The notes under the pieces: model-generated
The model's input: only the letters and a program-made list of their open reading frames with translations
The model's database searches: none
Told to the model about the DNA's origin: nothing
Part shown: positions 3,292 to 42,260 of the stretch, in pieces
Layout: each line of letters begins with the position of its first letter
How positions within the stretch are numbered: the first letter of the stretch is position 1
Program-made: the position numbers and the translations under genes
Sequence record: OR769032.1
Source: Escherichia phage JoYop
DNA: 64,000 nt
Reading direction: 5' to 3' (one strand)

Positions 3292-3478
3292 TATCTAAAA
3301 TGTTGAAGTTAAAAGATACAGCCCAGTCAGTGCAGACTGTAACCTTTTTAATACAATTATCTTCAACCTCTAGCGGTTCAAACCAGTATTCAATAATATC
3401 TTTATGACCAATATCATCTTTTACTTCGCATTCAAAATGCTGACTCATCATAACATTTTTAAATTCATCAAAAGTCAT
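3215..3478 (-). CDS. hypothetical protein (46.2 position)
   Basis: 87-aa ORF immediately downstream of gene 47. Confidence 0.4.
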   Translation of the reverse strand: MTFDEFKNVMMSQHFECEVKDDIGHKDIIEYWFEPLEVEDNCIKKVTVCTDWAVSFNFNILDNDTPKSLQDMAVSCIKDAYCEVFDI

Positions 3479-4494
3479 TGTGTTGCCTCTACATATAACT
3501 GATTTGCATATTGAATAAGTGCTTCACGGTCAGAATCAGTGATGTCTGGAATTGCATTAATATACTCTTCCATCAACGTCTGAAGCGATTGAACTTCAAC
3601 TTCTTCACTATCATCTGACTCGACAGAGTTATCAATCTTTGACACAACTCGTAATGAATGCACAACTTTTTCTAGCTCAGATTCGAACTTCGTCAGATTT
3701 TTGTCTACCTCAGTTACTATAACACGTACTGATAGATTTGTAAAATCTTTATAATCAATTTTTCCCTTAAATGGATATTGAATTCGACGATGCCAAGTAG
3801 TATTGTTTGGAATAAATTCCATTCGTTCTGTTTCTGTGTCAAACATCCAGAACCCACGAGGGTCATTCTCGTCACCTGCAGTTAGTGTCCATGGTGTCCC
3901 AATATATTTGACGTTTGCAGCCTCAGAAATAGTATGGAAGTGACCAGACCACACTTCTTTATAAGTCTTAAGGAAATCAGGTTCAAGACCGTGAGATTTC
4001 ATTCCTTTATAAAAATAAAATCCATTCAGTTCCCAGTGACCGACACAAAAAGAAGCAGATGAAGTTTTGATATGCTCAAGAATTTCACCAGTATTTTCTT
4101 CGCACATCCAAGGAATCAAATCAATCAAACATCCGTCAAAATCTACTGTAGTAGGCTTATCATATACTTTAACATTAGGATATTTAGCCAAAAGCTCAGT
4201 AGAGGCATTTGGAGTTAAAGTATTTTTGAAGTGCATATCATGGTTTCCTACAATAGTATGTAGGGTAATACCAGCATCATCAAGCATTTGAACTATTTCA
4301 CGAGCGAACTCCATAGTTTTATGCGTGATTGCTTTTCGCACATCAAAAATATCGCCGTATTGAATCCAGGTAGTAATTCCATTTTTCTTAGAATATTCTA
4401 TAGCTTGCTTAATTCCATCCAGCTGAATGGATTGAACCCACTCATCATCGGCTTTAACGCCTAAATGCCAATCACCTAAATTTAAAATTTTCAT
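3475..4494 (-). CDS. 47: Recombination endonuclease subunit gp47 (Mre11/SbcD-like phosphoesterase)
   Basis: 339 aa; calcineurin-like phosphoesterase motifs GDWHLG, GDIFD, GNHD; ATG start. Confidence 0.9.
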   Translation of the reverse strand: MKILNLGDWHLGVKADDEWVQSIQLDGIKQAIEYSKKNGITTWIQYGDIFDVRKAITHKTMEFAREIVQMLDDAGITLHTIVGNHDMHFKNTLTPNASTELLAKYPNVKVYDKPTTVDFDGCLIDLIPWMCEENTGEILEHIKTSSASFCVGHWELNGFYFYKGMKSHGLEPDFLKTYKEVWSGHFHTISEAANVKYIGTPWTLTAGDENDPRGFWMFDTETERMEFIPNNTTWHRRIQYPFKGKIDYKDFTNLSVRVIVTEVDKNLTKFESELEKVVHSLRVVSKIDNSVESDDSEEVEVQSLQTLMEEYINAIPDITDSDREALIQYANQLYVEATQ

Positions 4495-32468: not shown

Positions 32469-33047
32469 TTAGGAATTACGGGCTGCATTAGCAACGGCGT
32501 AAGCGTACTGAATATTGACGTCTTTAAACGTACCTTTGGAGGTATCTATTTCTGCCTTAAAGCCGCCTTTAGTCATAACATCGGCAAATTCTTTACGGAA
32601 AGCCATTGCATCAAGACCTTTCCATGATGATTTATGCTTAGCAAATTCAAGACCAGCGTAGTTGACAGCCTTAGCTAATTTATTATCAATAACCCATTTA
32701 CCGGCTTTAGGTACAAACACTGGGCCTTTCTGTTTAGAGAATAGTTTTAAATTCCAACGACGAAGGTCACCGTCAGCTTTAACAAAAGCTGCGTCCAAGT
32801 TACTAGCAACAACATCTTGAATATGGCCAAATTTAAGCCCATCAACTTCAATATTTAGATCAGTACGCCAGCGAAGTCCTTCCCAAGCGAAAGCTTTAAA
32901 GTCAGAAGCTTTTGTAGCTAAGTACCGTTCAATAGGAGCCGTTTTAGGGTCAAAGCCGTTTCCCGATCGATAGGTCCACTCATCTTTATTAATGCCTTTG
33001 GCCTTTTCCACAGAAGCTTCAGCGATAAATTCTTTATACGTTTTCAT
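32469..33047 (-). CDS. ipIII: Internal protein III (capsid-targeted)
   Basis: 192 aa starting MKTYKEFIAEASVEKAK; size matches T4 IPIII. Confidence 0.65.
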   Translation of the reverse strand: MKTYKEFIAEASVEKAKGINKDEWTYRSGNGFDPKTAPIERYLATKASDFKAFAWEGLRWRTDLNIEVDGLKFGHIQDVVASNLDAAFVKADGDLRRWNLKLFSKQKGPVFVPKAGKWVIDNKLAKAVNYAGLEFAKHKSSWKGLDAMAFRKEFADVMTKGGFKAEIDTSKGTFKDVNIQYAYAVANAARNS

Positions 33048-33108: not shown

Positions 33109-33369
33109 TTAAGCTTTACCGCCAGAAATAATTCCGAAGTTGTTAAAATCGTATCCAATATCGTCAACATCTACTTTAGGGCTTGCTACAACATAAGCAA
33201 TTTCACTACGTTTTGCATAGGTGTTTATTTCTTTACCATCACCGCCTAGGAAAGAATACCCATTACGTTTTAATGAGCCAAAGTCTTCCGCATCACCAAT
33301 GAAAGCTTTAACTTTAAATTTAGGACCTTTGGCATCTGCTTCAGTGATAAATTCTTGATACATTTTCAT
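33109..33369 (-). CDS. additional internal-protein-like gene with CTS
   Basis: 86 aa starting MKMYQEFITEADAKG. Confidence 0.5.
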   Translation of the reverse strand: MKMYQEFITEADAKGPKFKVKAFIGDAEDFGSLKRNGYSFLGGDGKEINTYAKRSEIAYVVASPKVDVDDIGYDFNNFGIISGGKA

Positions 33370-33847: not shown

Positions 33848-34129
33848 CTATTTTTCTGAAGCGCCTGAAATATATTTTTCAAGACGTTGTTTCATCAGCG
33901 AGCCGTTCTTAGCGATTTCTTCCGGTTTATCGCACATACGCAACAAAGCTTCAAGCTTAACGATATCACTGGTACGTTCAAATTTGCGAGTATCTATCTT
34001 ACTAGCAAGTTCAGAAATACGTGCTAATAGACTTTCGGCTTCAACCAAAGCTGCACCTAGCTTAGTTGCAAATGTGTCAGTAGCTTCGTTAAGAATAGAT
34101 TCTGATAAAAATTCACTATATGTTTTCAT
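33848..34129 (-). CDS. additional internal-protein-like gene with CTS
   Basis: Track start TTG; ATG at 34129 in ATGA overlap with lysozyme stop; protein starts [16 protein letters not shown]. Confidence 0.5.
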
Positions 34130-34614
34130 ATATACGCTTTCCAAGTTCCTGTTTTAAATGTTGAGATTACGCGTTTCGCGCGATTAGGTGTCTGACGGTA
34201 CCATTTAGATTGGGCTAGATTTACTGCCGCTTCATCCCAACGTTTCTGTTGAAGCATACGAAGAGAATTAGTAAAACCAGCGACGCCTGCTACACCCATT
34301 TGGAAGACCATATTGACCAACGCACATCGACGAACTGCATCTAAAGAATCATATACCGGTTTAAGTTTAGCATTACCCAAGATTCCGCGAACGGCTTTAT
34401 CAACGTCTTCATTAAATAGCTTTTCAGCCTCATCAAGGGTAATTGTACCGTTGCATTTACGTCCGATCATTCTGTCAAGTTCAGCTTTAGCTACGGCTAA
34501 AGACGGGTTCTTTGTTACTAAATGGCCTATGCCAATCGTCCAAAAGCCTTCAGTGTCTTTGTATAAAGTCAGTCTAAGACCTTCATCTATACGTAACATT
34601 TCAAATATATTCAT
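34126..34614 (-). CDS. e: Endolysin (T4 lysozyme family)
   Basis: 162 aa [32 protein letters not shown]...; catalytic E11/D20/T26 context conserved; about 85 percent identical to recalled T4 lysozyme. Confidence 0.95.
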
Positions 34615-34650: not shown

Positions 34651-35091
34651 TTAAAAGAGGCTGTTCATTATTCGGTAAAGTGAAGGACCCATCACATATT
34701 GCCACTGAGTACGAGGAATAAGAGCAAAAGCGTCCATCTCTGGAATCATAACGCCATCTTTATTTTCAAAATAAGACTCACAATGGCAATTTCTGAACAT
34801 CTCATGCTCTACTGGAATCATATAATAAAATAGCTGTAAGTCTTTATTACTAGAATATTTAAATACACCTAGGTCTTCTAGAAGGTCTGGATTATAATTA
34901 CTAAAACCAGTCTCTTCTAAGCATTCTCTTCGTGCTGCATCTAGTGCGTTTAAATCAGAATTTTCTACACGGCCCTTTGGAATATCCCAACGATGTGCCA
35001 TCATTCCAGGCTTACGAGAACCAGTAACCCGACCCATAAATAAATCTTTATCTTCTGTCATAAAGATAATACCAGCTGATAATGTTTTCAT
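34651..35091 (-). CDS. nudE: Nudix hydrolase NudE-like
   Basis: Nudix box ...GRVENSDLNALDAARRECLEETGF; ATG at 35091 in ATGA overlap with upstream stop. Confidence 0.7.
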   Translation of the reverse strand: MKTLSAGIIFMTEDKDLFMGRVTGSRKPGMMAHRWDIPKGRVENSDLNALDAARRECLEETGFSNYNPDLLEDLGVFKYSSNKDLQLFYYMIPVEHEMFRNCHCESYFENKDGVMIPEMDAFALIPRTQWQYVMGPSLYRIMNSLF

Positions 35092-35576
35092 TTTAATTTC
35101 CTGCATTCAGTGATAAAGTTATTTAAATTTTGAGTATATTTCTTTTCATCAAAAATCTTTTGCTGCCTACGTAAACGCCATGGCATTTCAATGAACACGC
35201 ACCATATTCCTGATAATATTGCTGCAGTAAAAATATTAACAAATATAGTACAAAGAGCCCAATCTCCTATTCTGTCCATTGGATTTTTTCCAAAGAAGTA
35301 AAATACGAATGATGACACAGGAAGACTGATAATATACCACAGAAGCATATTCTTGTCTGTAAACCAATCAGCGTTCGTTAACTTAGCGCGACCATTATGA
35401 ATACACACGAATTTATCATCTGTTACAGTAGATGGCTTAACTGGTTGATATCCCATTCTAAACTCCCTAATTAAACAGTTTTTCATATCTTCGGAACAGC
35501 CATTCCAGTCAACTCTATCAACTGAAATGCCATCATCCCCATCATCTAAATCATACCAACGAGTTTTTAAAATCAT
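35088..35576 (-). CDS. membrane protein with soluble N-terminal domain (member of tandem C-motif family)
   Basis: Track start is ATT; ATG at 35576; hydrophobic helices then C-terminus NFITECRKLK. Confidence 0.45.
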   Translation of the reverse strand: MILKTRWYDLDDGDDGISVDRVDWNGCSEDMKNCLIREFRMGYQPVKPSTVTDDKFVCIHNGRAKLTNADWFTDKNMLLWYIISLPVSSFVFYFFGKNPMDRIGDWALCTIFVNIFTAAILSGIWCVFIEMPWRLRRQQKIFDEKKYTQNLNNFITECRKLK

Positions 35577-35935
35577 CTGATTTTCCTGCAATCACTCACA
35601 AACTCTTTCATTGATTCATTTTCAATATAAGACATGTAGCTGTTATATTCTTTTAATTGTATTTTGTAATCCTTTTTTCTTTGCCAATTTATTTTAAAAT
35701 TATCATAATGAAAATATAACATGATACCAAAGAATGAAAATGATGAAATCGCTATAGTATAATGAAGTTCACTCCAAACTTCTGTTATAATTACTGTGCC
35801 ATCGATGTTTAAAATAAAACAGTCAATTAACAATCCAATAAGACTACCCGCAAGAGCTGCAGCCAACGCCACAGCAAAAATTAAAAATGACTCAGGAAAC
35901 GAATATTTGACTTTATTTAGTTTTGGCTTTTGCAT
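35573..35935 (-). CDS. two-TM membrane protein (tandem C-motif family)
   Basis: 120 aa; hydrophobic helices; C-terminus KEFVSDCRKIR; ATG start. Confidence 0.45.
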   Translation of the reverse strand: MQKPKLNKVKYSFPESFLIFAVALAAALAGSLIGLLIDCFILNIDGTVIITEVWSELHYTIAISSFSFFGIMLYFHYDNFKINWQRKKDYKIQLKEYNSYMSYIENESMKEFVSDCRKIR

Positions 35936-36309
35936 CGTGATTCCTTAACAAATTTCATAATTTCATCAAATTCATACGCAGCAAGTTTAAGCTGGTGTTC
36001 CTTTTTAATCTTTTTACACTGTGCTTTCCAATCGCGTATGCGTTTACGATAATGTCTTCCTTGATACCAGTATCCTACCCAATTTACAGGTACTAATAAA
36101 AATGGAACTATCATTGGAAGAATTAATGTTGACGCAAATATTATATTAGATTCAATATCAGTCATAACATCTATAACTATTCCAACCCCCAGTAGAATTA
36201 CAAATGATACAGCTATTACAGGACCTATTAATACATCAGTAGAAATTAGCTGGCGCTTTAATTCATACTTCAACGGTTTACTTGGAAGATACATTGATGG
36301 CTTTGACAT
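35917..36309 (-). CDS. two-TM membrane protein (tandem C-motif family)
   Basis: Track start TTG; ATG at 36309; C-terminus KFVKESRCKSQN. Confidence 0.45.
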   Translation of the reverse strand: MSKPSMYLPSKPLKYELKRQLISTDVLIGPVIAVSFVILLGVGIVIDVMTDIESNIIFASTLILPMIVPFLLVPVNWVGYWYQGRHYRKRIRDWKAQCKKIKKEHQLKLAAYEFDEIMKFVKESRCKSQN

Positions 36310-36886
36310 ATTCTCTACATTCCTTAACAAATTTTTCTAATAATAAATCGCTTTCAAAATTAGGATTTTCCACGAATTTATCAAAAAGATCATCAACAAT
36401 GGTTAAAATATTCTTTTTGCTAAGAATACGTTTATTTTCATGCTTCGTTTCAGAATCAACTATAAGAGTAAAGAAATATTTCTTGCCACGAAATTTTACA
36501 GTAGTATCAATATAAAATAAATTTGACTTTTGTAAATTACGTTTAAACCATGCGTCACTTAAACTATAAATGCCAAGATAATCATAATCGTCATTTAAAT
36601 AACAAACTGTCCATTCAGGAGAAATGAAATCAGTAAATTCAACATCAAAATCGCATGTCAATGAATGAATTGATTCAATACTTTTAATGAGTATTCCAGG
36701 ACGTATTAAAGACTTTTTACCTCTACAAAATCTTCCAGAAAGGCTTTCATCAGTTTCATATGAAGACCCCCAATAGTAATTACGTCCTTCTGCCATGCGT
36801 TTAAGAGCATTTAGTAATTGGTCTGGAACATCAACCTGTCTTTGGAACTCTTCAAACATTGAATTGAAATCACTTTGCATTTTCAT
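36278..36886 (-). CDS. hypothetical soluble protein sharing C-terminal motif with the downstream membrane proteins
   Basis: 202 aa; C-terminal LEKFVKECREYVKAIN. Confidence 0.45.
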   Translation of the reverse strand: MKMQSDFNSMFEEFQRQVDVPDQLLNALKRMAEGRNYYWGSSYETDESLSGRFCRGKKSLIRPGILIKSIESIHSLTCDFDVEFTDFISPEWTVCYLNDDYDYLGIYSLSDAWFKRNLQKSNLFYIDTTVKFRGKKYFFTLIVDSETKHENKRILSKKNILTIVDDLFDKFVENPNFESDLLLEKFVKECREYVKAINVSSK

Positions 36887-36906: not shown

Positions 36907-36922
36907 AGGGGCCGAAGCCCCT
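36907..36922 (-). terminator. GC hairpin (AGGGGC-TTCG-GCCCCT), terminator or RNA structure
   Basis: Perfect inverted repeat in short intergenic gap; no clear U-tract. Confidence 0.3.
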
Positions 36923-36927
36923 TATCA

Positions 36928-37521
36928 TTATTTCAGAGAATTAATGTATTCCTGAACATCGGCAGAGGTGGTTTCAACCCCAGAAATATTACCGTTAAAG
37001 GTTTCAACTCGAGCAAGAGTATCTTCAATATCAACCTTAGTCAGTGCTGCAATTTCAACTACATCATCAGCAGTACTAATTCCAAGGGCATTCGCTGCAC
37101 GAGTTTCACGGATATATTCCAATTTAACTGCAAGTTCTTGGCGAGCATCATCTAACTCAACTACTTTCTTGGCGATTTCAATTCGCATTTCAGCATAACC
37201 ATCAGCTTTAGTAGTTAACTGTTCAGCTGTTCGACGATATAACAAGCCGAGTTTAGCATGCATTGTTACATCTTGACCTTCGGAAAGAAGCTTACGAATT
37301 TCACGCTCTTTTGATTCGGCCTGCTTATTCTTTTCGACAATAAGTTCACGAATACGTTTTTCTTCATTAATAGATTTAACAGAAGCAGTTTTTAGGTCTT
37401 TAATTTTATCAAGTAGTTTTGCTGCTGCAGCAGTATACTGTTCTTCAACAGATAGATTTTTAGCCATAGCAGAACCAAGTTTAGTGCGAATAAACTCAAC
37501 AATTTTCTTCAGTGTGTTCAT
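36928..37521 (-). CDS. PspA/IM30-like coiled-coil protein (tentative)
   Basis: 197 aa, almost entirely heptad-like with A/E/K/R-rich segments reminiscent of phage-shock protein A. Confidence 0.4.
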
Positions 37522-37564
37522 AGTATTTCCTTAGGTTAATTAAGATTTAAAATCCATGAGAGTA

Positions 37565-37777: not shown

Positions 37778-37807
37778 ATAATAACACCGTCCTTGGTGTT
37801 TGTACAC
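37778..37807 (-). promoter_or_regulatory. early-promoter-like element
   Basis: Minus strand GTGTAC-(18 nt)-TATTAT. Confidence 0.35.
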
Positions 37808-38116: not shown

Positions 38117-38146
38117 ATAGTACCACAGAAGAACAGGGATGTAAAC
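38117..38146 (-). promoter_or_regulatory. T4-type early promoter
   Basis: Minus strand GTTTACA-(18 nt)-TGG-TACTAT-ACAACTATCAAC with A/T-rich upstream element. Confidence 0.55.
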
Positions 38147-38284
38147 AGTTTTGTGAAAAAATTTTTAAAAAGTTTTGGGGAATTCTAGGGCAGGGAGGGG
38201 CAATTAAAGGATAGGATAATATATTATAAAGGGTAGAAACTAAATGATGCCTAGAGAGGCCCGGAAAGGCCTAGATATCAAAAA

Positions 38285-38304
38285 CCCCAACCTTTCGGCT
38301 GAGG
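38285..38304 (-). terminator. intrinsic terminator after internal-protein-like gene
   Basis: CCTCAGCC-GAAA-GGTTGGGG hairpin then TTTTTG on minus strand; a second GGCC...GGCC hairpin follows. Confidence 0.5.
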
Positions 38305-38313
38305 CTAAGAATG

Positions 38314-38787
38314 TTATTTGATTTGTTTAGCAGACCAAATGCGGTCTTTAATAATTTTTTGGATGTCTTCAACATACTCAAGAGAGTGAACATGCGGGTT
38401 ATCTTTGAAACTATAAGCACGAGCTAGCTTTTGGCCTTCAGTTTTGATTACTAAAAGCTCTTTAAGGATAGCTTCATATTTGGAAATAATTCCTTTAACA
38501 ATATTTTTCTCTTGTGCGACTTTAGGATCTGCTTTAGGAGCAGGTTTACCTGAAGCTTTTGCAAAAGCAGCTCCAGTAGCAACTAAACTTTTCCAAGCCA
38601 TACTAACTGCATTTCCCGTAAATCCTTCTGCTTTCATATCGCGAGCAAATTGGAATCGCGATTCATCAGAAGCATCTTTATAGGAATATTTACCCGCGGC
38701 AATGGCAGCTTTTGCGACAGCTTGAATTTCGGTGCTAGATGCTTCATTTAACACCGCTTCATTTAAAAATTGAGCATATGATTTCAT
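38314..38787 (-). CDS. additional internal-protein-like gene with CTS
   Basis: 157 aa starting MKSYAQFLNEAVLNEA; Ala/Lys-rich. Confidence 0.5.
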   Translation of the reverse strand: MKSYAQFLNEAVLNEASSTEIQAVAKAAIAAGKYSYKDASDESRFQFARDMKAEGFTGNAVSMAWKSLVATGAAFAKASGKPAPKADPKVAQEKNIVKGIISKYEAILKELLVIKTEGQKLARAYSFKDNPHVHSLEYVEDIQKIIKDRIWSAKQIK

Positions 38788-38838
38788 CTTATTTCCTGTT
38801 TTAATTCGGGGTTTTAATATACTTATTTATACTAAAAA

Positions 38839-38860
38839 GCCCCAACCTTTCGGTTGGGGC
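38839..38860 (-). terminator. intrinsic terminator closing the tRNA/stable RNA transcription unit
   Basis: GCCCCAACC-GAAA-GGTTGGGGC followed by TTTTTAG on minus strand. Confidence 0.6.
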
Positions 38861-38864
38861 TAAG

Positions 38865-39541: not shown

Positions 39542-39618
<77 letters not shown>

Positions 39619-39622
39619 TATT

Positions 39623-39697
39623 TGGCGGACATGCATGGATTCGAACCATGGACCAATTGATTAACAGTCAACTGCTCTACCACTGAGCTACACATCC
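39623..39697 (-). tRNA. tRNA-Asn (anticodon GUU)
   Basis: Hand-folded: GGATGTG acceptor, D-arm GCTCAGTGGTAGAGC, anticodon loop CUGUUAA, T-loop TTCGAAT, CCA encoded. Confidence 0.65.
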
Positions 39698-39701
39698 AAA
39701 T

Positions 39702-39788
39702 TGGTGGGGAGTGATGGAGTCGAACCACCCGAGTCGCAATGACAATGGATTTACAGTCCACACCGCTACCTCTACGGGATAACTCCCC
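39702..39788 (-). tRNA. tRNA-Tyr (anticodon GUA), long variable arm
   Basis: 87 nt; anticodon stem-loop GTGGA-CUGUAAA-TCCAT; variable arm resembles bacterial tRNA-Tyr; D-arm fold less clean. Confidence 0.55.
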
Positions 39789-39801
39789 TTAATTCTTAAT
39801 T

Positions 39802-39876
39802 TGGTGGCCCTGGGTGGAATTGAACCACCATCTGGCGATTATGAGTCGCTTGCTTGAACCTTCCAGCTACAGGGCC
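39802..39876 (-). tRNA. tRNA with CAU anticodon (Ile2/lysidine-type or Met)
   Basis: Hand-folded: acceptor GGCCCTG, anticodon loop CUCAUAA; T4 has a CAU tRNA read as Ile. Confidence 0.6.
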
Positions 39877-39877
39877 T

Positions 39878-39953
39878 TGGTGCTGATTGACGGAATCGAA
39901 CCGCCGACCTTCTCATTACAAGTGAGTTGCTCTACCTACTGAGCTAAATCAGC
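39878..39953 (-). tRNA. tRNA-Thr (anticodon UGU)
   Basis: Hand-folded: D-arm GCTCAGTAGGTAGAGC, anticodon loop CUUGUAA. Confidence 0.65.
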
Positions 39954-39958
39954 AAAAC

Positions 39959-40048
39959 TGGCGGAGGCGATAGGATTTGAACCTATGAGTCGCCGGAGCG
40001 ACTGCCGGTTTTCAAGACCGGTGCATTAAACCACTCTGCCACGCCTCC
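39959..40048 (-). tRNA. tRNA-Ser (anticodon UGA), long variable arm
   Basis: 90 nt; anticodon stem-loop CCGGT-CUUGAAA-ACCGG. Confidence 0.65.
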
Positions 40049-40050
40049 AG

Positions 40051-40124
40051 TCTCCATACAAGGATTTGAACCTTGGACCTCCTGATCCCAAATCAGGCGC
40101 TCTACCAAACTGAGCTACACGGAG
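40051..40124 (-). tRNA. tRNA-Pro (anticodon UGG)
   Basis: Hand-folded: anticodon stem-loop CCTGA-UUUGGGA-TCAGG; CCA not encoded. Confidence 0.65.
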
Positions 40125-40134
40125 TAAATTAAAT

Positions 40135-40208
<74 letters not shown>

Positions 40209-40213
40209 AAATT

Positions 40214-40300
40214 TGGTGCGAGAAGTGGGACTCGAACCCACAAGGAAATCATTCCGCAGCATTTTAAGTGCTGTGCCTTTACCAATTTGACCATTCTCGC
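40214..40300 (-). tRNA. tRNA-Leu (anticodon UAA), long variable arm
   Basis: 87 nt; anticodon stem-loop CAGCA-CUUAAAA-TGCTG; T-arm GTGGG-TTCGAGT-CCCAC. Confidence 0.65.
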
Positions 40301-40306
40301 GCTATA

Positions 40307-40915
40307 TTATTTATTACGTGAAAAAGACTGTTCTATCAATTCTGGACACTTTCGTTCTATCCATTTTCTAGCTTTTTGTGGGCTTATACCTATTATTTTA
40401 GCAGCTTTACTAACCCATCCAAATTTAGAATAATCGATTTTAACTAATTCTTCGTAAATTTCATCAGTTAAAATCTTTTCATTAATATTTACCAGTAAAT
40501 GATATAATTTATTATCATTAGCAATTTTAATGAATCTTTTATAGTTTCCGCCTTTACTTAAACCTAATGAAGTAATTGCAGATGATATAGTAGCCGAATT
40601 TAATAGTGCGTTTAAAATTTCTTCATCACTAACATTATAACGCTTTTTATTATTTTTAATATTTTTACCAGCAAAAGTATCAGTTTGCGAATGGCAATTT
40701 GGACATAATAATCTTAAATTTGATTTAAGATGATTTTTGTTATTTCCATCAATATGATCTAATTGCAGAACAATATGCTTATTTTGCCATTTTGAAATTT
40801 TACAAATTGCACACTCATATGGAAAAATATTTTCTTTTATTATTTTGTCTTTCAGCTTTCCTGTACTAAAATTTGGATGTTTTCCTTCAAAAATTTCAGC
40901 TAATTTAGTATCCAT
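40307..40915 (-). CDS. HNH family homing endonuclease, free-standing, abutting the tRNA cluster
   Basis: HNH core CAICK...LQLDHIDGNNKNHLKSNLRLLCPNCHSQTD; C-terminal helix-turn-helix-like region; track start TTG, ATG at 40915. Confidence 0.65.
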   Translation of the reverse strand: MDTKLAEIFEGKHPNFSTGKLKDKIIKENIFPYECAICKISKWQNKHIVLQLDHIDGNNKNHLKSNLRLLCPNCHSQTDTFAGKNIKNNKKRYNVSDEEILNALLNSATISSAITSLGLSKGGNYKRFIKIANDNKLYHLLVNINEKILTDEIYEELVKIDYSKFGWVSKAAKIIGISPQKARKWIERKCPELIEQSFSRNK

Positions 40916-41025
40916 AATATAATTCCCAATTATTAACAAAGGCTCTCAAGCAAGAACCCTTGATGATAGAGGGTATTAATCAGTGCGATATGAGTTAATA
41001 ATAACAAATAATTCTTAAAGCATAT

Positions 41026-41951: not shown

Positions 41952-42260
41952 CTATTTTATTCCGCGTGATGCAATTGTATTCTGTCGTTTAACACTAGTT
42001 TGTTTAAAGTCATGATTGTCGATTTGATCGGTACGAGCAACCCCGAATGATGATTTAATCTTAGCTTTAGATCCTTTAGTTATAGAAATAAACATCTCGG
42101 AAGCCCCTTTCTTAAAGTCAGAAGCGATTACTTCAACACCGTTCTTAGCAAGTGACCCCAGAATTGCCTCCGCATACTCATCGTCAAGACTAGCCTGAGT
42201 ATTAATAACGAATGTCTTTGGTGCAACTGCTTCATTGATAAATTCTTTGAAAGTTTTCAT
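41952..42260 (-). CDS. ipI: Internal protein I-like (capsid-targeted)
   Basis: 102 aa starting MKTFKEFINEAVAPK; located just upstream of 57B as T4 ipI. Confidence 0.6.
   Translation of the reverse strand: MKTFKEFINEAVAPKTFVINTQASLDDEYAEAILGSLAKNGVEVIASDFKKGASEMFISITKGSKAKIKSSFGVARTDQIDNHDFKQTSVKRQNTIASRGIK

What the first reader, a model, noticed from the sequence alone, without database searches (positions are those of the whole stretch)
36928..37521. PspA/IM30-like all-coiled-coil protein next to the membrane-protein cluster
The 197-aa protein is almost entirely heptad-patterned, rich in A/E/K/R, with segments reminiscent of phage-shock protein A family members. A phage-encoded membrane-stress-type scaffold beside small membrane proteins could help manage envelope integrity during infection. 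Similarity is judged by eye only.
Basis: inference. Interest (0 to 1): 0.4.

Follow-up and report, generated by a model that had tools for sequence, protein, structure and literature searches.

The report
T4 e.6: a phage-encoded PspA homologue
This early gene of a T4-like phage (the counterpart of T4 gene e.6, so far listed as "function unknown") encodes a very diverged relative of the bacterial membrane-repair protein PspA/Vipp1, so the phage probably brings its own "phage shock protein" to keep the host's inner membrane intact during infection.

Summary
The ORF is real: 36928-37521, minus strand, 197 aa. It is the ortholog of T4 gene e.6 in a Tequatrovirus genome.

- **Direct scans are blank.** Pfam, NCBIfam and PDB sequence searches with the single protein give no PspA hit.
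- **Profile against PDB.** A 44-sequence family profile puts Vipp1/PspA chains in eight of the nine best places (best E 6e-5), aligned residue 1 to residue 1.
- **Profile against profile.** hhalign against PspA alignments gives 92-94% probability (P 4.7e-7 local, 2e-8 global over 203 columns). Reversed and shuffled controls score 22 or less, against 50.5 for the real alignment.
- **Bridging relatives.** Family members from Vi1-like (Ackermannviridae) phages pass Pfam's PspA_IM30 cut-off. One of them matches the window protein by BLASTP at 1e-13.
- **T4 data.** Published work shows e.6 is made early and is dispensable in the laboratory.

Homology is well supported. Membrane binding, polymerisation and membrane protection are inferred. 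This is a new, diverged member of a known kind. Moderate interest.

The parts
36928..37521 (-). e.6 coding sequence (197 aa), a diverged PspA/IM30-family protein
   Evidence: ORF. Annotated e.6 in RB14/T2. PHROG 1203, unknown function. PspA homology.
37456..37515 (-). residues 3-22: predicted N-terminal amphipathic helix (equivalent of PspA/Vipp1 helix a0, the membrane-binding helix)
   Evidence: AF2 helix 3-22, low confidence (pLDDT ~52). Hydrophobic moment 0.45 here, family mean 0.51, against 0.61 for Vipp1 a0. Aligns to PspA residues 1-22 in hhalign and carries much of the score.
37282..37449 (-). residues 25-80: helix a1, first arm of the long hairpin
   Evidence: AF2 helix 25-80, mostly pLDDT 88-98 (about 78 at its first residues). 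Heptad periodicity p~0.009. Aligned to PspA a1.
37267..37281 (-). residues 81-85: hairpin tip (EGQDV), variable in length across the family
   Evidence: AF2 loop 81-85. Indel-prone columns in the family alignment. Aligns to the PspA hairpin tip.
37087..37266 (-). residues 86-145: helix a2/a3, second arm of the hairpin, containing the most conserved family block ([17 protein letters not shown])
   Evidence: AF2 helix 86-145, pLDDT 83-95. Invariant columns K90 L91 L94 R96 K133 L134 I137 R138.
37000..37071 (-). residues 151-174: short helices after the conserved Gly147 elbow (shortened equivalent of a4)
   Evidence: AF2 helices 151-160 and 166-174, pLDDT 59-66. G147 nearly invariant.
36934..36966 (-). 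residues 186-196: C-terminal helix (equivalent of a5), conserved motif Y-x-x-S-L-K
   Evidence: AF2 helix 186-196, pLDDT ~89. Aligns to the PspA/Vipp1 C-terminal 'LaaLKak' in the global hhalign. Y192 S195 L196 K197 nearly invariant.
37528..37532 (-). Shine-Dalgarno AAGGA, 6 nt before the ATG
   Evidence: Read directly from the sequence.
36907..36922 (-). GC-rich UUCG-tetraloop hairpin directly after the e.6 stop codon (RNA stabiliser or weak terminator)
38117..38145 (-). T4-early-type promoter-like site (GTTTACA, 17 nt, TGgTACTAT) upstream of e.8; likely start of the e.8-orf58-e.6 transcript
   Evidence: Consensus scan and sequence. A consensus match only. T4 e.6 RNA is classed 'early'.
37778..37806 (-). 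second early-type promoter-like site (TGTACA, 17 nt, TGtTATTAT) upstream of orf58 and e.6
   Evidence: A consensus match only.
35088..36330 (-). e.4, e.3 and e.2: three small predicted inner-membrane proteins downstream of e.6 and e.5 (candidate partners; association inferred from adjacency only)
   Evidence: Predicted TM segments. PHROGs 2604, 2330 and 2203, the last annotated 'membrane protein'. Vi1-like phages also place small TM proteins directly after their PspA-like gene.
36278..36886 (-). e.5 (202 aa, no TM, unknown function), between e.6 and the membrane-protein genes

Best explanation
The gene is the ortholog of phage T4 e.6. It encodes a strongly diverged member of the PspA/IM30(Vipp1) family, the bacterial branch of the ESCRT-III superfamily.

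**Shown here**
- Common ancestry with PspA/Vipp1.
- Predicted helices laid out as in PspA: an N-terminal amphipathic helix a0, a long a1/a2-3 helical hairpin, an elbow at Gly147, a short a4, a flexible linker and a conserved C-terminal a5.
- From published T4 data: early transcription, protein present by mid-infection, and no fitness cost when knocked down in the laboratory.

**Inferred**
- Like PspA/Vipp1, the protein binds the cytoplasmic face of the inner membrane through a0.
- It self-assembles by hairpin stacking, with a5 packing onto neighbouring subunits, into carpets, rings or rods.
- These seal or stabilise stressed membrane and preserve the proton-motive force.

**Rationale for a phage copy (inference)**
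- T4 shuts off host transcription and degrades host DNA (textbook T4 biology, from my own knowledge).
- In one published transcriptome, T4 gave only weak or partial psp induction.
- A premature loss of membrane potential would trigger the holin or abort the infection.

The small membrane proteins encoded just downstream (e.4, e.3, e.2) may act as anchors or clients, as LiaI does for LiaH or PspB/C for PspA. This last point is the weakest step.
For: **Identity**
- 96-98% DNA identity to RB14, T2 and other Tequatroviruses, where the ORF is annotated e.6.
- The family is narrow: 45 cluster representatives in 1.8 billion proteins, almost all ~200 aa and full length.

**Homology to PspA**
1. hmmsearch of the 44-sequence family profile A2 against all PDB sequences puts Vipp1/PspA chains in eight of the nine best places (the top six are Vipp1; a prefoldin subunit ranks seventh). 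E values run from 6.1e-5 to 2e-3, aligned 1-146 to 1-147.
2. hhalign against three independently built PspA alignments gives probability 92-94% and P 4.3e-7 to 7e-7 locally. The global alignment gives P 2.1e-8 over 203 columns and joins both termini.
3. Controls: reversed profile scores 17.9 (P 0.08). The best of 40 column shuffles scores 20.2. The best of 40 heptad-block shuffles scores 22.1. The real score is 50.5. Circular shifts always recover the same N-terminus-to-N-terminus register.
4. Distant family members P0188 (39.0 bits, E 8.9e-10) and P0186 (35.1 bits) exceed Pfam PF04012's gathering score of 33.9 over residues 6-146. They match the e.6 profile at E ~3e-20 full length. P0188 matches the window protein by BLASTP at 1e-13, 25% identity over 194 residues with one gap.
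5. The Kuttervirus homolog is deposited in GenBank as 'PspA/IM30 family protein'.
6. A PspA HMM ranks this ORF first among 552 ORFs of the window, though weakly (E 0.008).

**Structure**
- AF2 with A2 gives pLDDT 81.7 and helices 3-22, 25-80, 86-145, 151-160, 166-174 and 186-196.
- Foldseek against PDB: ranks 1-8 are all Vipp1 (E 2e-3 to 1.6e-2), and archaeal ESCRT-III CdvB2 is at ranks 10-12.
- Foldseek against BFVD, after the family's own members, lists 'PspA/IM30 family protein' of Acinetobacter phage ME3 and a giant-virus Snf7 protein.

**Expression and dispensability**
- T4 e.6 is classed 'early RNA, middle protein' (PMC9697503 supplement).
- CRISPRi-ART knock-down is 'Not Fit', meaning no fitness defect (PMC11879866 supplement).

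**Context**
- Predicted membrane proteins follow the gene here and in two Vi1-like phage lineages.
- T4 infection gives only weak or partial induction of the host psp operon (PMC12795941).
Against: - **Direct scans miss it.** The window protein gives no PspA hit in Pfam, NCBIfam or PDB single-sequence searches, even at E<=10. All evidence for this particular protein goes through profiles or intermediates.
- **Low identity.** Identity to PspA is only 11-14% in the profile alignments. Coiled-coil sequences inflate such scores: HMMER bias terms are large (16.5 of 25 bits).
- **Weakest regions.** a0 and the a4 region are the least confident parts of the model (pLDDT 52-66). a4 is much shorter than in PspA.
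- **No recognisable partners.** No PspB, PspC or PspF homologs are nearby.
- **Neighbours are not conserved.** The T4-type neighbours e.2-e.5 share no detectable similarity with the membrane proteins that follow the Vi1-like homologs. In RB43 the gene sits elsewhere, without membrane-protein neighbours, and looks frameshifted.
- **No functional test.** Nothing here addresses membrane binding, oligomerisation or any phenotype. The knock-down has no phenotype in standard conditions.
Confidence: 0.6

Rival explanations
1. Counter-defence variant of the same biochemistry. e.6 is a PspA-type membrane sealer whose selected role is to neutralise host abortive-infection effectors that kill by depolarising or perforating the inner membrane. 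It would not be for general housekeeping of the infected cell's membrane.
For: - Same homology evidence as the main explanation.
- The gene is accessory: non-essential in a laboratory strain, early-expressed, and located in a variable region of T4-like genomes.
- It sits at different genomic places in different lineages. This is typical of host-interaction genes (general knowledge).
Against: - No defence system is known to be countered by it.
- PADLOC and anti-defence resources were not informative or not searched.
- The family is strongly conserved across many host genera. That fits a general physiological role at least as well.
Confidence: 0.15
2. Unrelated or convergent coiled-coil protein. 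The PspA resemblance would be a by-product of long amphipathic helices. The protein would act as something else, such as a BAR-like curvature protein, an assembly scaffold, or the 'host specificity' or 'tail completion' protein that some database records call it.
For: - Single-sequence Pfam hits are a scatter of coiled-coil families.
- Some UniRef and GenBank records name homologs 'host specificity protein' or 'tail completion protein'.
Against: - Reversal, column-shuffle and heptad-block-shuffle controls remove the PspA signal.
- Among 177,635 PDB sequences, which include many coiled coils, Vipp1/PspA take eight of the nine best places.
- Bridging members pass Pfam's curated PspA_IM30 cut-off.
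- The alignment is end-to-end collinear.
- An early RNA and mid-infection protein does not fit a virion or tail protein.
- No profile evidence supports the tail or host-range names, and PHROG 1203 is 'unknown function'.
Confidence: 0.1
3. Regulatory mimic. e.6 imitates PspA to bind host Psp components (the activator PspF or the sensors PspB/C). It would thereby silence or hijack the host membrane-stress response rather than act on the membrane itself.
For: - E. coli PspA is both effector and negative regulator of PspF (established knowledge; PMC3128695 is listed).
- e.6 aligns to the a1-a3 hairpin region of PspA.
- T4 induces psp only weakly.
Against: - Identity to E. coli PspA is ~12%, so conservation of a specific PspF-binding surface is unlikely.
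- Homologs occur in phages of hosts as different as Aeromonas, Klebsiella, Serratia and Erwinia.
- T4 already shuts off host transcription globally (general knowledge), which makes a dedicated PspF inhibitor largely redundant.
Confidence: 0.05

Closest known systems
PspA (E. coli) and Vipp1/IM30 (Synechocystis sll0617, Nostoc): Pfam PF04012, bacterial ESCRT-III superfamily
   Same: - Collinear profile alignment from Met1 to the C-terminal helix.
- Same predicted order of helices: a0 amphipathic helix, a1/a2-3 hairpin with breaks at residues ~23 and ~81-85, then a4 and a5.
- Vipp1 is the best Foldseek PDB match.
   Different: - Only 11-14% identity in the profile alignments, and the window protein is invisible to the Pfam model.
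- About 25 residues shorter, mostly through a truncated a4.
- The PspA signature 'KAEDP' between a0 and a1 is replaced by 'KN-S-E(D/E)'.
- Phage-encoded early gene with no PspF/B/C partners.
- No Vipp1-type a6.
'PspA/IM30 family protein' of Vi1-like phages (Ackermannviridae), e.g. Salmonella phage vB_SentM_sal1 QMV34086.1; clusters P0186 and P0188
   Same: - Same protein family as e.6: BLASTP 1e-13 to the window protein and E ~3e-20 to the e.6 profile.
- Same length (~202 aa).
- Also followed by small predicted membrane proteins.
   Different: - These members retain enough PspA signal to pass Pfam's cut-off, and one is already named accordingly in GenBank.
- They lie between the helicase and ligase genes rather than between e and the tRNA cluster.
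- Their neighbouring genes are not homologous to e.2-e.5.
Canonical pspA genes carried by large phages (IMG/VR contigs L002-L009; pspA-like gene next to terD in 'Jug' jumbo phages, PMC12880540; Acinetobacter phage ME3)
   Same: Phage-borne members of the same superfamily. This shows that carrying a PspA is a recurrent phage strategy.
   Different: - Those are close to bacterial PspA: 24-33% identity to E. coli PspA, the KAEDP motif intact, 219-238 aa. They look like recent host acquisitions.
- e.6 is a long-resident, much more diverged lineage specific to T4-like and Vi1-like phages.
LiaH-LiaI (Bacillus subtilis) and PspA-PspB/C: PspA homolog plus small membrane anchor or sensor
   Same: By analogy only. 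A soluble PspA-type protein is encoded beside small integral membrane proteins (LiaIH and PspBC from established knowledge).
   Different: - No sequence similarity of e.2, e.3, e.4 or e.5 to LiaI, PspB or PspC.
- The interaction is untested.
Eukaryotic and archaeal ESCRT-III (Snf7/CHMP, CdvB)
   Different: - Weaker than the PspA/Vipp1 signal and without sequence support.
- No MIM-type tail or Vps4 partner.
- ESCRT-III proper lacks the PspA-type a0 arrangement.
BAR, F-BAR and I-BAR domains
   Different: - No profile or sequence support. Pfam BAR_3 appears only at E 0.0026 in one distant member, below PspA_IM30 in the same protein.
- The match reflects generic long antiparallel helices.

Membership tests
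PspA/IM30 (Pfam PF04012) | The protein itself scores above the curated Pfam gathering threshold (33.9 bits) | tested here: not met
   No PF04012 hit for the window protein even at E<=10. The closer T4-type members also miss it.
PspA/IM30 (Pfam PF04012) | Demonstrable homology to family members (profile-profile, profile-sequence, or transitive through intermediates that pass the curated threshold) | tested here: met
   - hhalign probability 92-94%, P 4.7e-7 local and 2e-8 global, with reversed and shuffled controls at score <=22 against 50.5.
- Vipp1/PspA take eight of the nine best places in the PDB profile search, best E 6e-5.
- P0188 and P0186 pass PF04012 and link to e.6 at 1e-13 and 3e-20.
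PspA/IM30 (Pfam PF04012) | N-terminal amphipathic helix a0 (~residues 1-22) that mediates membrane binding | tested here: met
   By prediction only. AF2 helix 3-22 at low confidence. Hydrophobic moment 0.45, family mean 0.51, Vipp1 a0 0.61. Aligned to PspA a0. Actual membrane binding was not tested.
PspA/IM30 (Pfam PF04012) | Long a1/a2-3 coiled-coil hairpin | tested here: met
   AF2 helices 25-80 and 86-145, pLDDT mostly 83-98 (about 78 at the start of a1). Heptad periodicity.
PspA/IM30 (Pfam PF04012) | Helices a4 and a5 after a hinge, with a5 used for inter-subunit packing | tested here: inconclusive
   A confident C-terminal helix 186-196 aligns to the PspA a5 end. The a4 equivalent is short, split (151-160, 166-174) and low-confidence. 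Inter-subunit packing cannot be assessed from a monomer model.
PspA/IM30 (Pfam PF04012) | Self-assembly into rings, rods or carpets, and membrane stabilisation or remodelling | not testable with these tools
   Needs purified protein (EM, liposome assays) or multimer modelling. Only monomer prediction is available here.
Psp system (PspF-ABC type) | Genomic and functional association with PspB, PspC or PspF | tested here: not met
   Neighbours match only PHROGs of unknown function or 'membrane protein', and no Pfam family. This feature defines the enterobacterial Psp system, not the PspA/IM30 family as a whole (Vipp1 and LiaH lack it).
ESCRT-III proper (Snf7/CHMP/CdvB) | Specific fold or sequence match to the Snf7 family | tested here: inconclusive
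BAR domain superfamily | Sequence or profile match to a BAR family, and a crescent dimer | tested here: not met

The most novel reading that the evidence does not exclude
T4-like and Vi1-like phages carry a self-contained, phage-specific ESCRT-III-type membrane-maintenance module. It would consist of the PspA-like e.6 and lineage-specific small membrane proteins (e.2-e.4 in T4) that recruit or regulate it. The module would replace the host Psp response after host shut-off. It would set how long the infected cell keeps its membrane potential, and so influence lysis timing, lysis inhibition, or resistance to membrane-targeting abortive-infection systems.
Probability: 0.25. Interest if true: 0.7.

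Novelty: new member of a known kind. Interest (0 to 1): 0.5.

Why it matters
T4 is the reference virulent phage, yet roughly half of its genes have no known function. As recently as 2025 a genome-wide functional study listed e.6 as 'unknown function' (PMC11879866 supplement).

Placing e.6 in the PspA/Vipp1 branch of the ESCRT-III superfamily turns an anonymous but widely conserved gene into a concrete hypothesis. It matches more than 500 phage records infecting Escherichia, Klebsiella, Salmonella, Aeromonas, Serratia and other hosts. The hypothesis is that these phages supply their own membrane-repair protein.

That bears on three things:
- how infected cells keep their membrane potential until programmed lysis;
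- how phages might resist membrane-attacking defences;
- how far the ESCRT-III superfamily reaches into viruses.

The gain is limited. Phage-borne pspA genes are already annotated elsewhere, and the function is inferred rather than shown.

Tried and rejected
**Searches that gave nothing or could not run**
- Single-sequence scans of the window protein gave no PspA signal: Pfam, NCBIfam, PDB phmmer, and Pfam on the 31 closer family members. They returned only scattered coiled-coil families.
- The first, shallow family profile (A1) gave only non-significant Vipp1 hits (E 1-2.4). More diverged members from the exhaustive search were needed.
- The 'afdb50' fold library was not available.
- The search for related loci with the diverse alignment failed for lack of a conserved stretch.

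**Uninformative comparisons**
- The E. coli PspA homolog search and the genome scan returned mostly close gammaproteobacterial PspAs. Diversity for the PspA profile came from PDB Vipp1 and IMG/VR viral pspA genes.

**Literature**
- Searches found no paper linking T4 e.6 to PspA.
- The ESCRT-III and PSP evolution papers I searched for phage and virus terms do not discuss phage homologs.

**Ideas considered and rejected or left untested**
- Homology between T4-type e.2-e.5 and the membrane proteins that follow the Vi1-like homologs: none found.
- A capsid-targeting (internal protein) role for e.6: rejected by reasoning, not by a test. Its N-terminus does not fit the MK-x-Y-x-E-F motif seen in neighbouring internal-protein genes, and it is an early gene.
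- The database names 'host specificity protein' and 'tail completion protein': no supporting evidence found.
Full report
**What is at the coordinates**

The window is part of a T4-like (Tequatrovirus) genome. A 2-kb stretch around the finding is 96-98% identical to Escherichia phages PaulHMueller, RB14, RB3 and T2, and it matches 680 phage records.

The ORF at 36928..37521 on the minus strand (197 aa, ATG start) corresponds to the gene annotated e.6 in RB14 and T2. It has an AAGGA ribosome-binding site 6 nt upstream, and a GC-rich UUCG hairpin follows its stop codon.

The local gene order on the minus strand is:
- an internal-protein-like ORF (38314-38787);
- e.8;
- a 58-aa ORF;
- e.6;
- e.5;
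- e.4, e.3 and e.2;
- nudE;
- e (lysozyme).

The tRNA cluster lies upstream at 39542-40300.

The composition claim holds: A+E+K+R make up 40% of residues. AlphaFold2 predicts about 85% helix. Heptad periodicity is significant over residues 25-145, reached by 7 of 1000 shuffles. The last quarter of the protein is not coiled coil.

e.4, e.3 and e.2 each have one or two predicted transmembrane segments. e.5, which lies between them and e.6, has none.

**Direct searches say nothing**

- Pfam, NCBIfam and PDB sequence searches with the protein itself give no PspA hit even at E<=10.
- PHROGs places it in phrog_1203, 'unknown function'.
- A word-indexed search of 5.8 billion proteins finds 49 relatives, all from T4-like phages or metagenomes, none with a Pfam domain spanning the protein.
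- An exhaustive HMMER search of 1.8 billion cluster representatives with the family profile finds only 45 proteins, almost all ~200 aa and matched end to end.

This is a narrow, phage-restricted family.

**Profile evidence for PspA/Vipp1**

I added the most diverged members to make a 44-sequence alignment, A2, which goes down to 18% identity.

Its profile, searched against all 177,635 distinct PDB sequences, puts Vipp1/PspA chains in eight of the nine best places. The top six are Vipp1, and a prefoldin subunit ranks seventh. E values run from 6.1e-5 to 2e-3. The alignment runs residue 1 to residue 1 and through position ~146. The shallower alignment A1 had shown the same collinear match only at E ~1-2.

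Profile-profile comparison (hhalign) was run against three PspA alignments:
- enterobacterial PspA plus Synechocystis Vipp1;
- a set including PspA genes recovered from viral contigs;
- a 22-sequence set that adds gammaproteobacterial diversity.

These gave 91.9-92.7% probability and P = 4.3e-7 to 7e-7 over 131-143 columns. The global alignment covers 203 columns at 94% probability and P 2.1e-8. It pairs the conserved C-terminal 'Y-x-x-S-L-K' of e.6 with the 'L-a-a-L-K-a-k' end of PspA/Vipp1.

**Controls for coiled-coil bias**

| Comparison | hhalign score |
|---|---|
| Real alignment | 50.5 |
| Either profile reversed | ~18 (P ~0.08) |
| Best of 40 column shuffles | 20.2 |
| Best of 40 shuffles of 7-column blocks (keeps local heptad character) | 22.1 |

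Circular permutations always re-found the same N-terminus-to-N-terminus register. A PspA HMM also ranks this ORF first among all 552 stop-to-stop ORFs of the window, though weakly (E 0.008). The signal depends on residue order and is not a composition artefact.

**Bridging relatives pass the curated threshold**

Two diverged family members reach Pfam PspA_IM30 (PF04012) above its gathering score of 33.9 bits, over residues 6-146 against model positions 2-143:
- P0188: 39.0 bits, E 8.9e-10;
- P0186: 35.1 bits.

The same two proteins match the e.6 profile full length at E ~3e-20 in the 1.8-billion-protein search. P0188 aligns with the window protein by plain BLASTP at 1e-13, with 25% identity over 194 residues and one gap.

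P0186 lies on a 156-kb contig with UvsX, a gp41-type helicase and a DNA ligase. Relatives of P0188 sit in ~157-160 kb Klebsiella and Salmonella phages, the one checked being a Kuttervirus (Ackermannviridae). One GenBank record, Salmonella phage vB_SentM_sal1, already calls the protein 'PspA/IM30 family protein'.

This closes a transitive chain: window e.6, to the Vi1-like homologs, to PspA_IM30.

**Structure**

With A2, AlphaFold2 gives mean pLDDT 81.7 and pTM 0.67. The predicted helices are:

| Residues | Element | pLDDT |
|---|---|---|
| 3-22 | a0 | ~52 |
| 25-80 | a1, hairpin arm | 88-98 (about 78 at its first residues) |
| 86-145 | a2/a3, hairpin arm | 83-95 |
| 151-160, 166-174 | short a4 equivalent | 59-66 |
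| 186-196 | a5 | ~89 |

This is the a0-a5 order of PspA/Vipp1, with helix breaks at the same places (~23 and ~81-85) as in the hhalign alignment.

- Foldseek against PDB lists Vipp1 structures at ranks 1-8 (E 2.3e-3 to 1.6e-2, probability 1.0) and archaeal ESCRT-III CdvB2 at ranks 10-12.
- Against viral predicted structures, after the family's own members come a 'PspA/IM30 family protein' of Acinetobacter phage ME3 and a giant-virus Snf7 protein.

The structural evidence is consistent with the sequence evidence, but it would not stand alone.

**Expression, dispensability and context**

An early-type promoter-like site (GTTTACA, 17 nt, TGgTACTAT) lies upstream of e.8. Another lies upstream of the 58-aa ORF. 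These are consensus matches only.

For T4 itself:
- e.6 (UniProt P39224) is classed 'early RNA, middle protein' in time-resolved omics (PMC9697503 supplement).
- Its knock-down by CRISPRi-ART is scored 'Not Fit', meaning no fitness defect, and its function is listed as unknown (PMC11879866 supplement).

In one transcriptome study, T4 infection induces the host psp operon only weakly, unlike PhiX174 (PMC12795941).

In the Vi1-like phages the PspA-like gene is again followed directly by small predicted membrane proteins. These are not detectably related to e.2-e.5. In RB43 the gene sits between nrdD and nrdG, has no such neighbours, and appears frameshifted.

**Most likely mechanism**

Shown here:
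- homology to PspA/Vipp1;
- a predicted a0-a5 helix layout matching PspA.

Taken from published T4 data:
- early expression;
- dispensability in the laboratory.

Inferred from what the family does (PspA and Vipp1 bind membranes through a0, polymerise through the hairpin and a5, and protect membrane integrity and the proton gradient; titles and abstracts listed, e.g. PMC8281802, PMC4556811, PMC12358876; reference to Kobayashi et al. 2007 seen):
- e.6 binds the inner membrane and forms protective assemblies in the infected cell.

A phage copy makes sense because T4 blocks host gene expression (textbook knowledge). The host therefore cannot mount its own Psp response, and an early loss of membrane potential would trigger lysis or abort the infection.

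Whether e.2-e.4 are partners is speculation based on adjacency.

**Rivals**
- The same biochemistry used specifically against membrane-attacking host defences.
- A PspA mimic that acts on host PspF, PspB or PspC.
- A convergent coiled coil with another role.

**Novelty**

Phage-borne pspA genes are not new:
- Canonical ones occur on IMG/VR contigs, including 260-360 kb phages.
- A pspA-like gene next to terD is mentioned for 'Jug' jumbo phages (PMC12880540).
- Acinetobacter phage ME3 carries one.
- One Vi1-like member of this very family carries the name in GenBank.

What I did not find anywhere is recognition that T4 e.6 and its orthologs across T4-like phages belong to this family. The places checked were five literature searches, two reviews or surveys of the family, and PHROGs, Pfam and NCBIfam.

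I therefore rate it a new, strongly diverged member of a known kind. Interest is moderate: a model-phage gene gains a testable function, and the ESCRT-III superfamily gains a long-resident viral lineage. The function itself remains to be shown.

Noticed in passing
window 35088-35115, 35573-35600, 35917-35950, 36290-36330 (minus strand): The 3' ends of four consecutive genes (e.5, e.4, e.3, e.2) share a ~25-nt junction motif, AAnTTTGTnAnnGAnTGYAGRAAA...ATG. It encodes a common C-terminal peptide (K/E/N)-F-(V/I)-x-(E/D)-(C/S)-R-(K/C/E). It also overlaps the ribosome-binding site and start codon of the next gene. It could be a relic of serial duplication, a translational-coupling cassette, or a shared interaction motif.
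   Followed up: partly
window 32469-33047, 33109-33369, 33848-34144, 38314-38787, 41952-42260 (minus strand): Five ORFs begin with the same N-terminal pattern, MK(T/S/M)(Y/F)x(E/Q)F(I/L)xE(A/S). This resembles the capsid-targeting sequence of T4 internal proteins (resemblance from my own knowledge). The 157-aa ORF just upstream of e.8, a PHROG of unknown function, would then be another internal head protein.
   Followed up: no
window 38838-38861 and 38283-38306 (minus strand): Two near-identical GC-rich GAAA-tetraloop hairpins, AGCC(C/T)CA(A/G)CCGAAAGGTTGGGG(C/T)T followed by T runs, flank the 157-aa ORF. This suggests a terminator-bounded mobile or exchangeable gene cassette.
   Followed up: no
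window 39542-40300 and 40307-40939 (minus strand): A cluster of nine tRNA genes (Arg, Asn, Tyr, Met/Ile-CAU, Thr, Ser, Pro, Gly, Leu). Directly upstream of it (the preceding gene in the direction of transcription) is a 210-aa ORF with an HNH-like motif (HIDGNNKNH...CPNCH), at the place where T4 carries the GIY-YIG homing endonuclease segB (the T4 comparison is from my own knowledge).
   Followed up: no
L093 (Escherichia phage RB43, NC_007023.1) 3390-3986: The RB43 gene annotated e.6 covers only the C-terminal 97 aa. The N-terminal part (MIKKIFSFLNNKVETVIEQNTSPED...) is present upstream in another reading frame. The gene is therefore frameshifted there, either a pseudogene or a sequencing error. 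It also lies between nrdD and nrdG rather than near gene e.
   Followed up: partly
database records of e.6 homologs (P0003, P0034, P0037; hits H39, H44, H51, H53; BFVD A0A5Q2F7S5): Several UniRef and GenBank records name e.6 homologs 'host specificity protein' or 'tail completion protein'. Nothing found here supports either name, and they look like propagated mis-annotations.
   Followed up: partly
L002-L009 (IMG/VR viral contigs): Canonical PspA genes (219-238 aa, KAEDP motif intact, 24-33% identical to E. coli PspA) occur on viral contigs of 7 to 360 kb, including four contigs above 260 kb. Their gene neighbourhoods were fetched but not examined.
   Followed up: no
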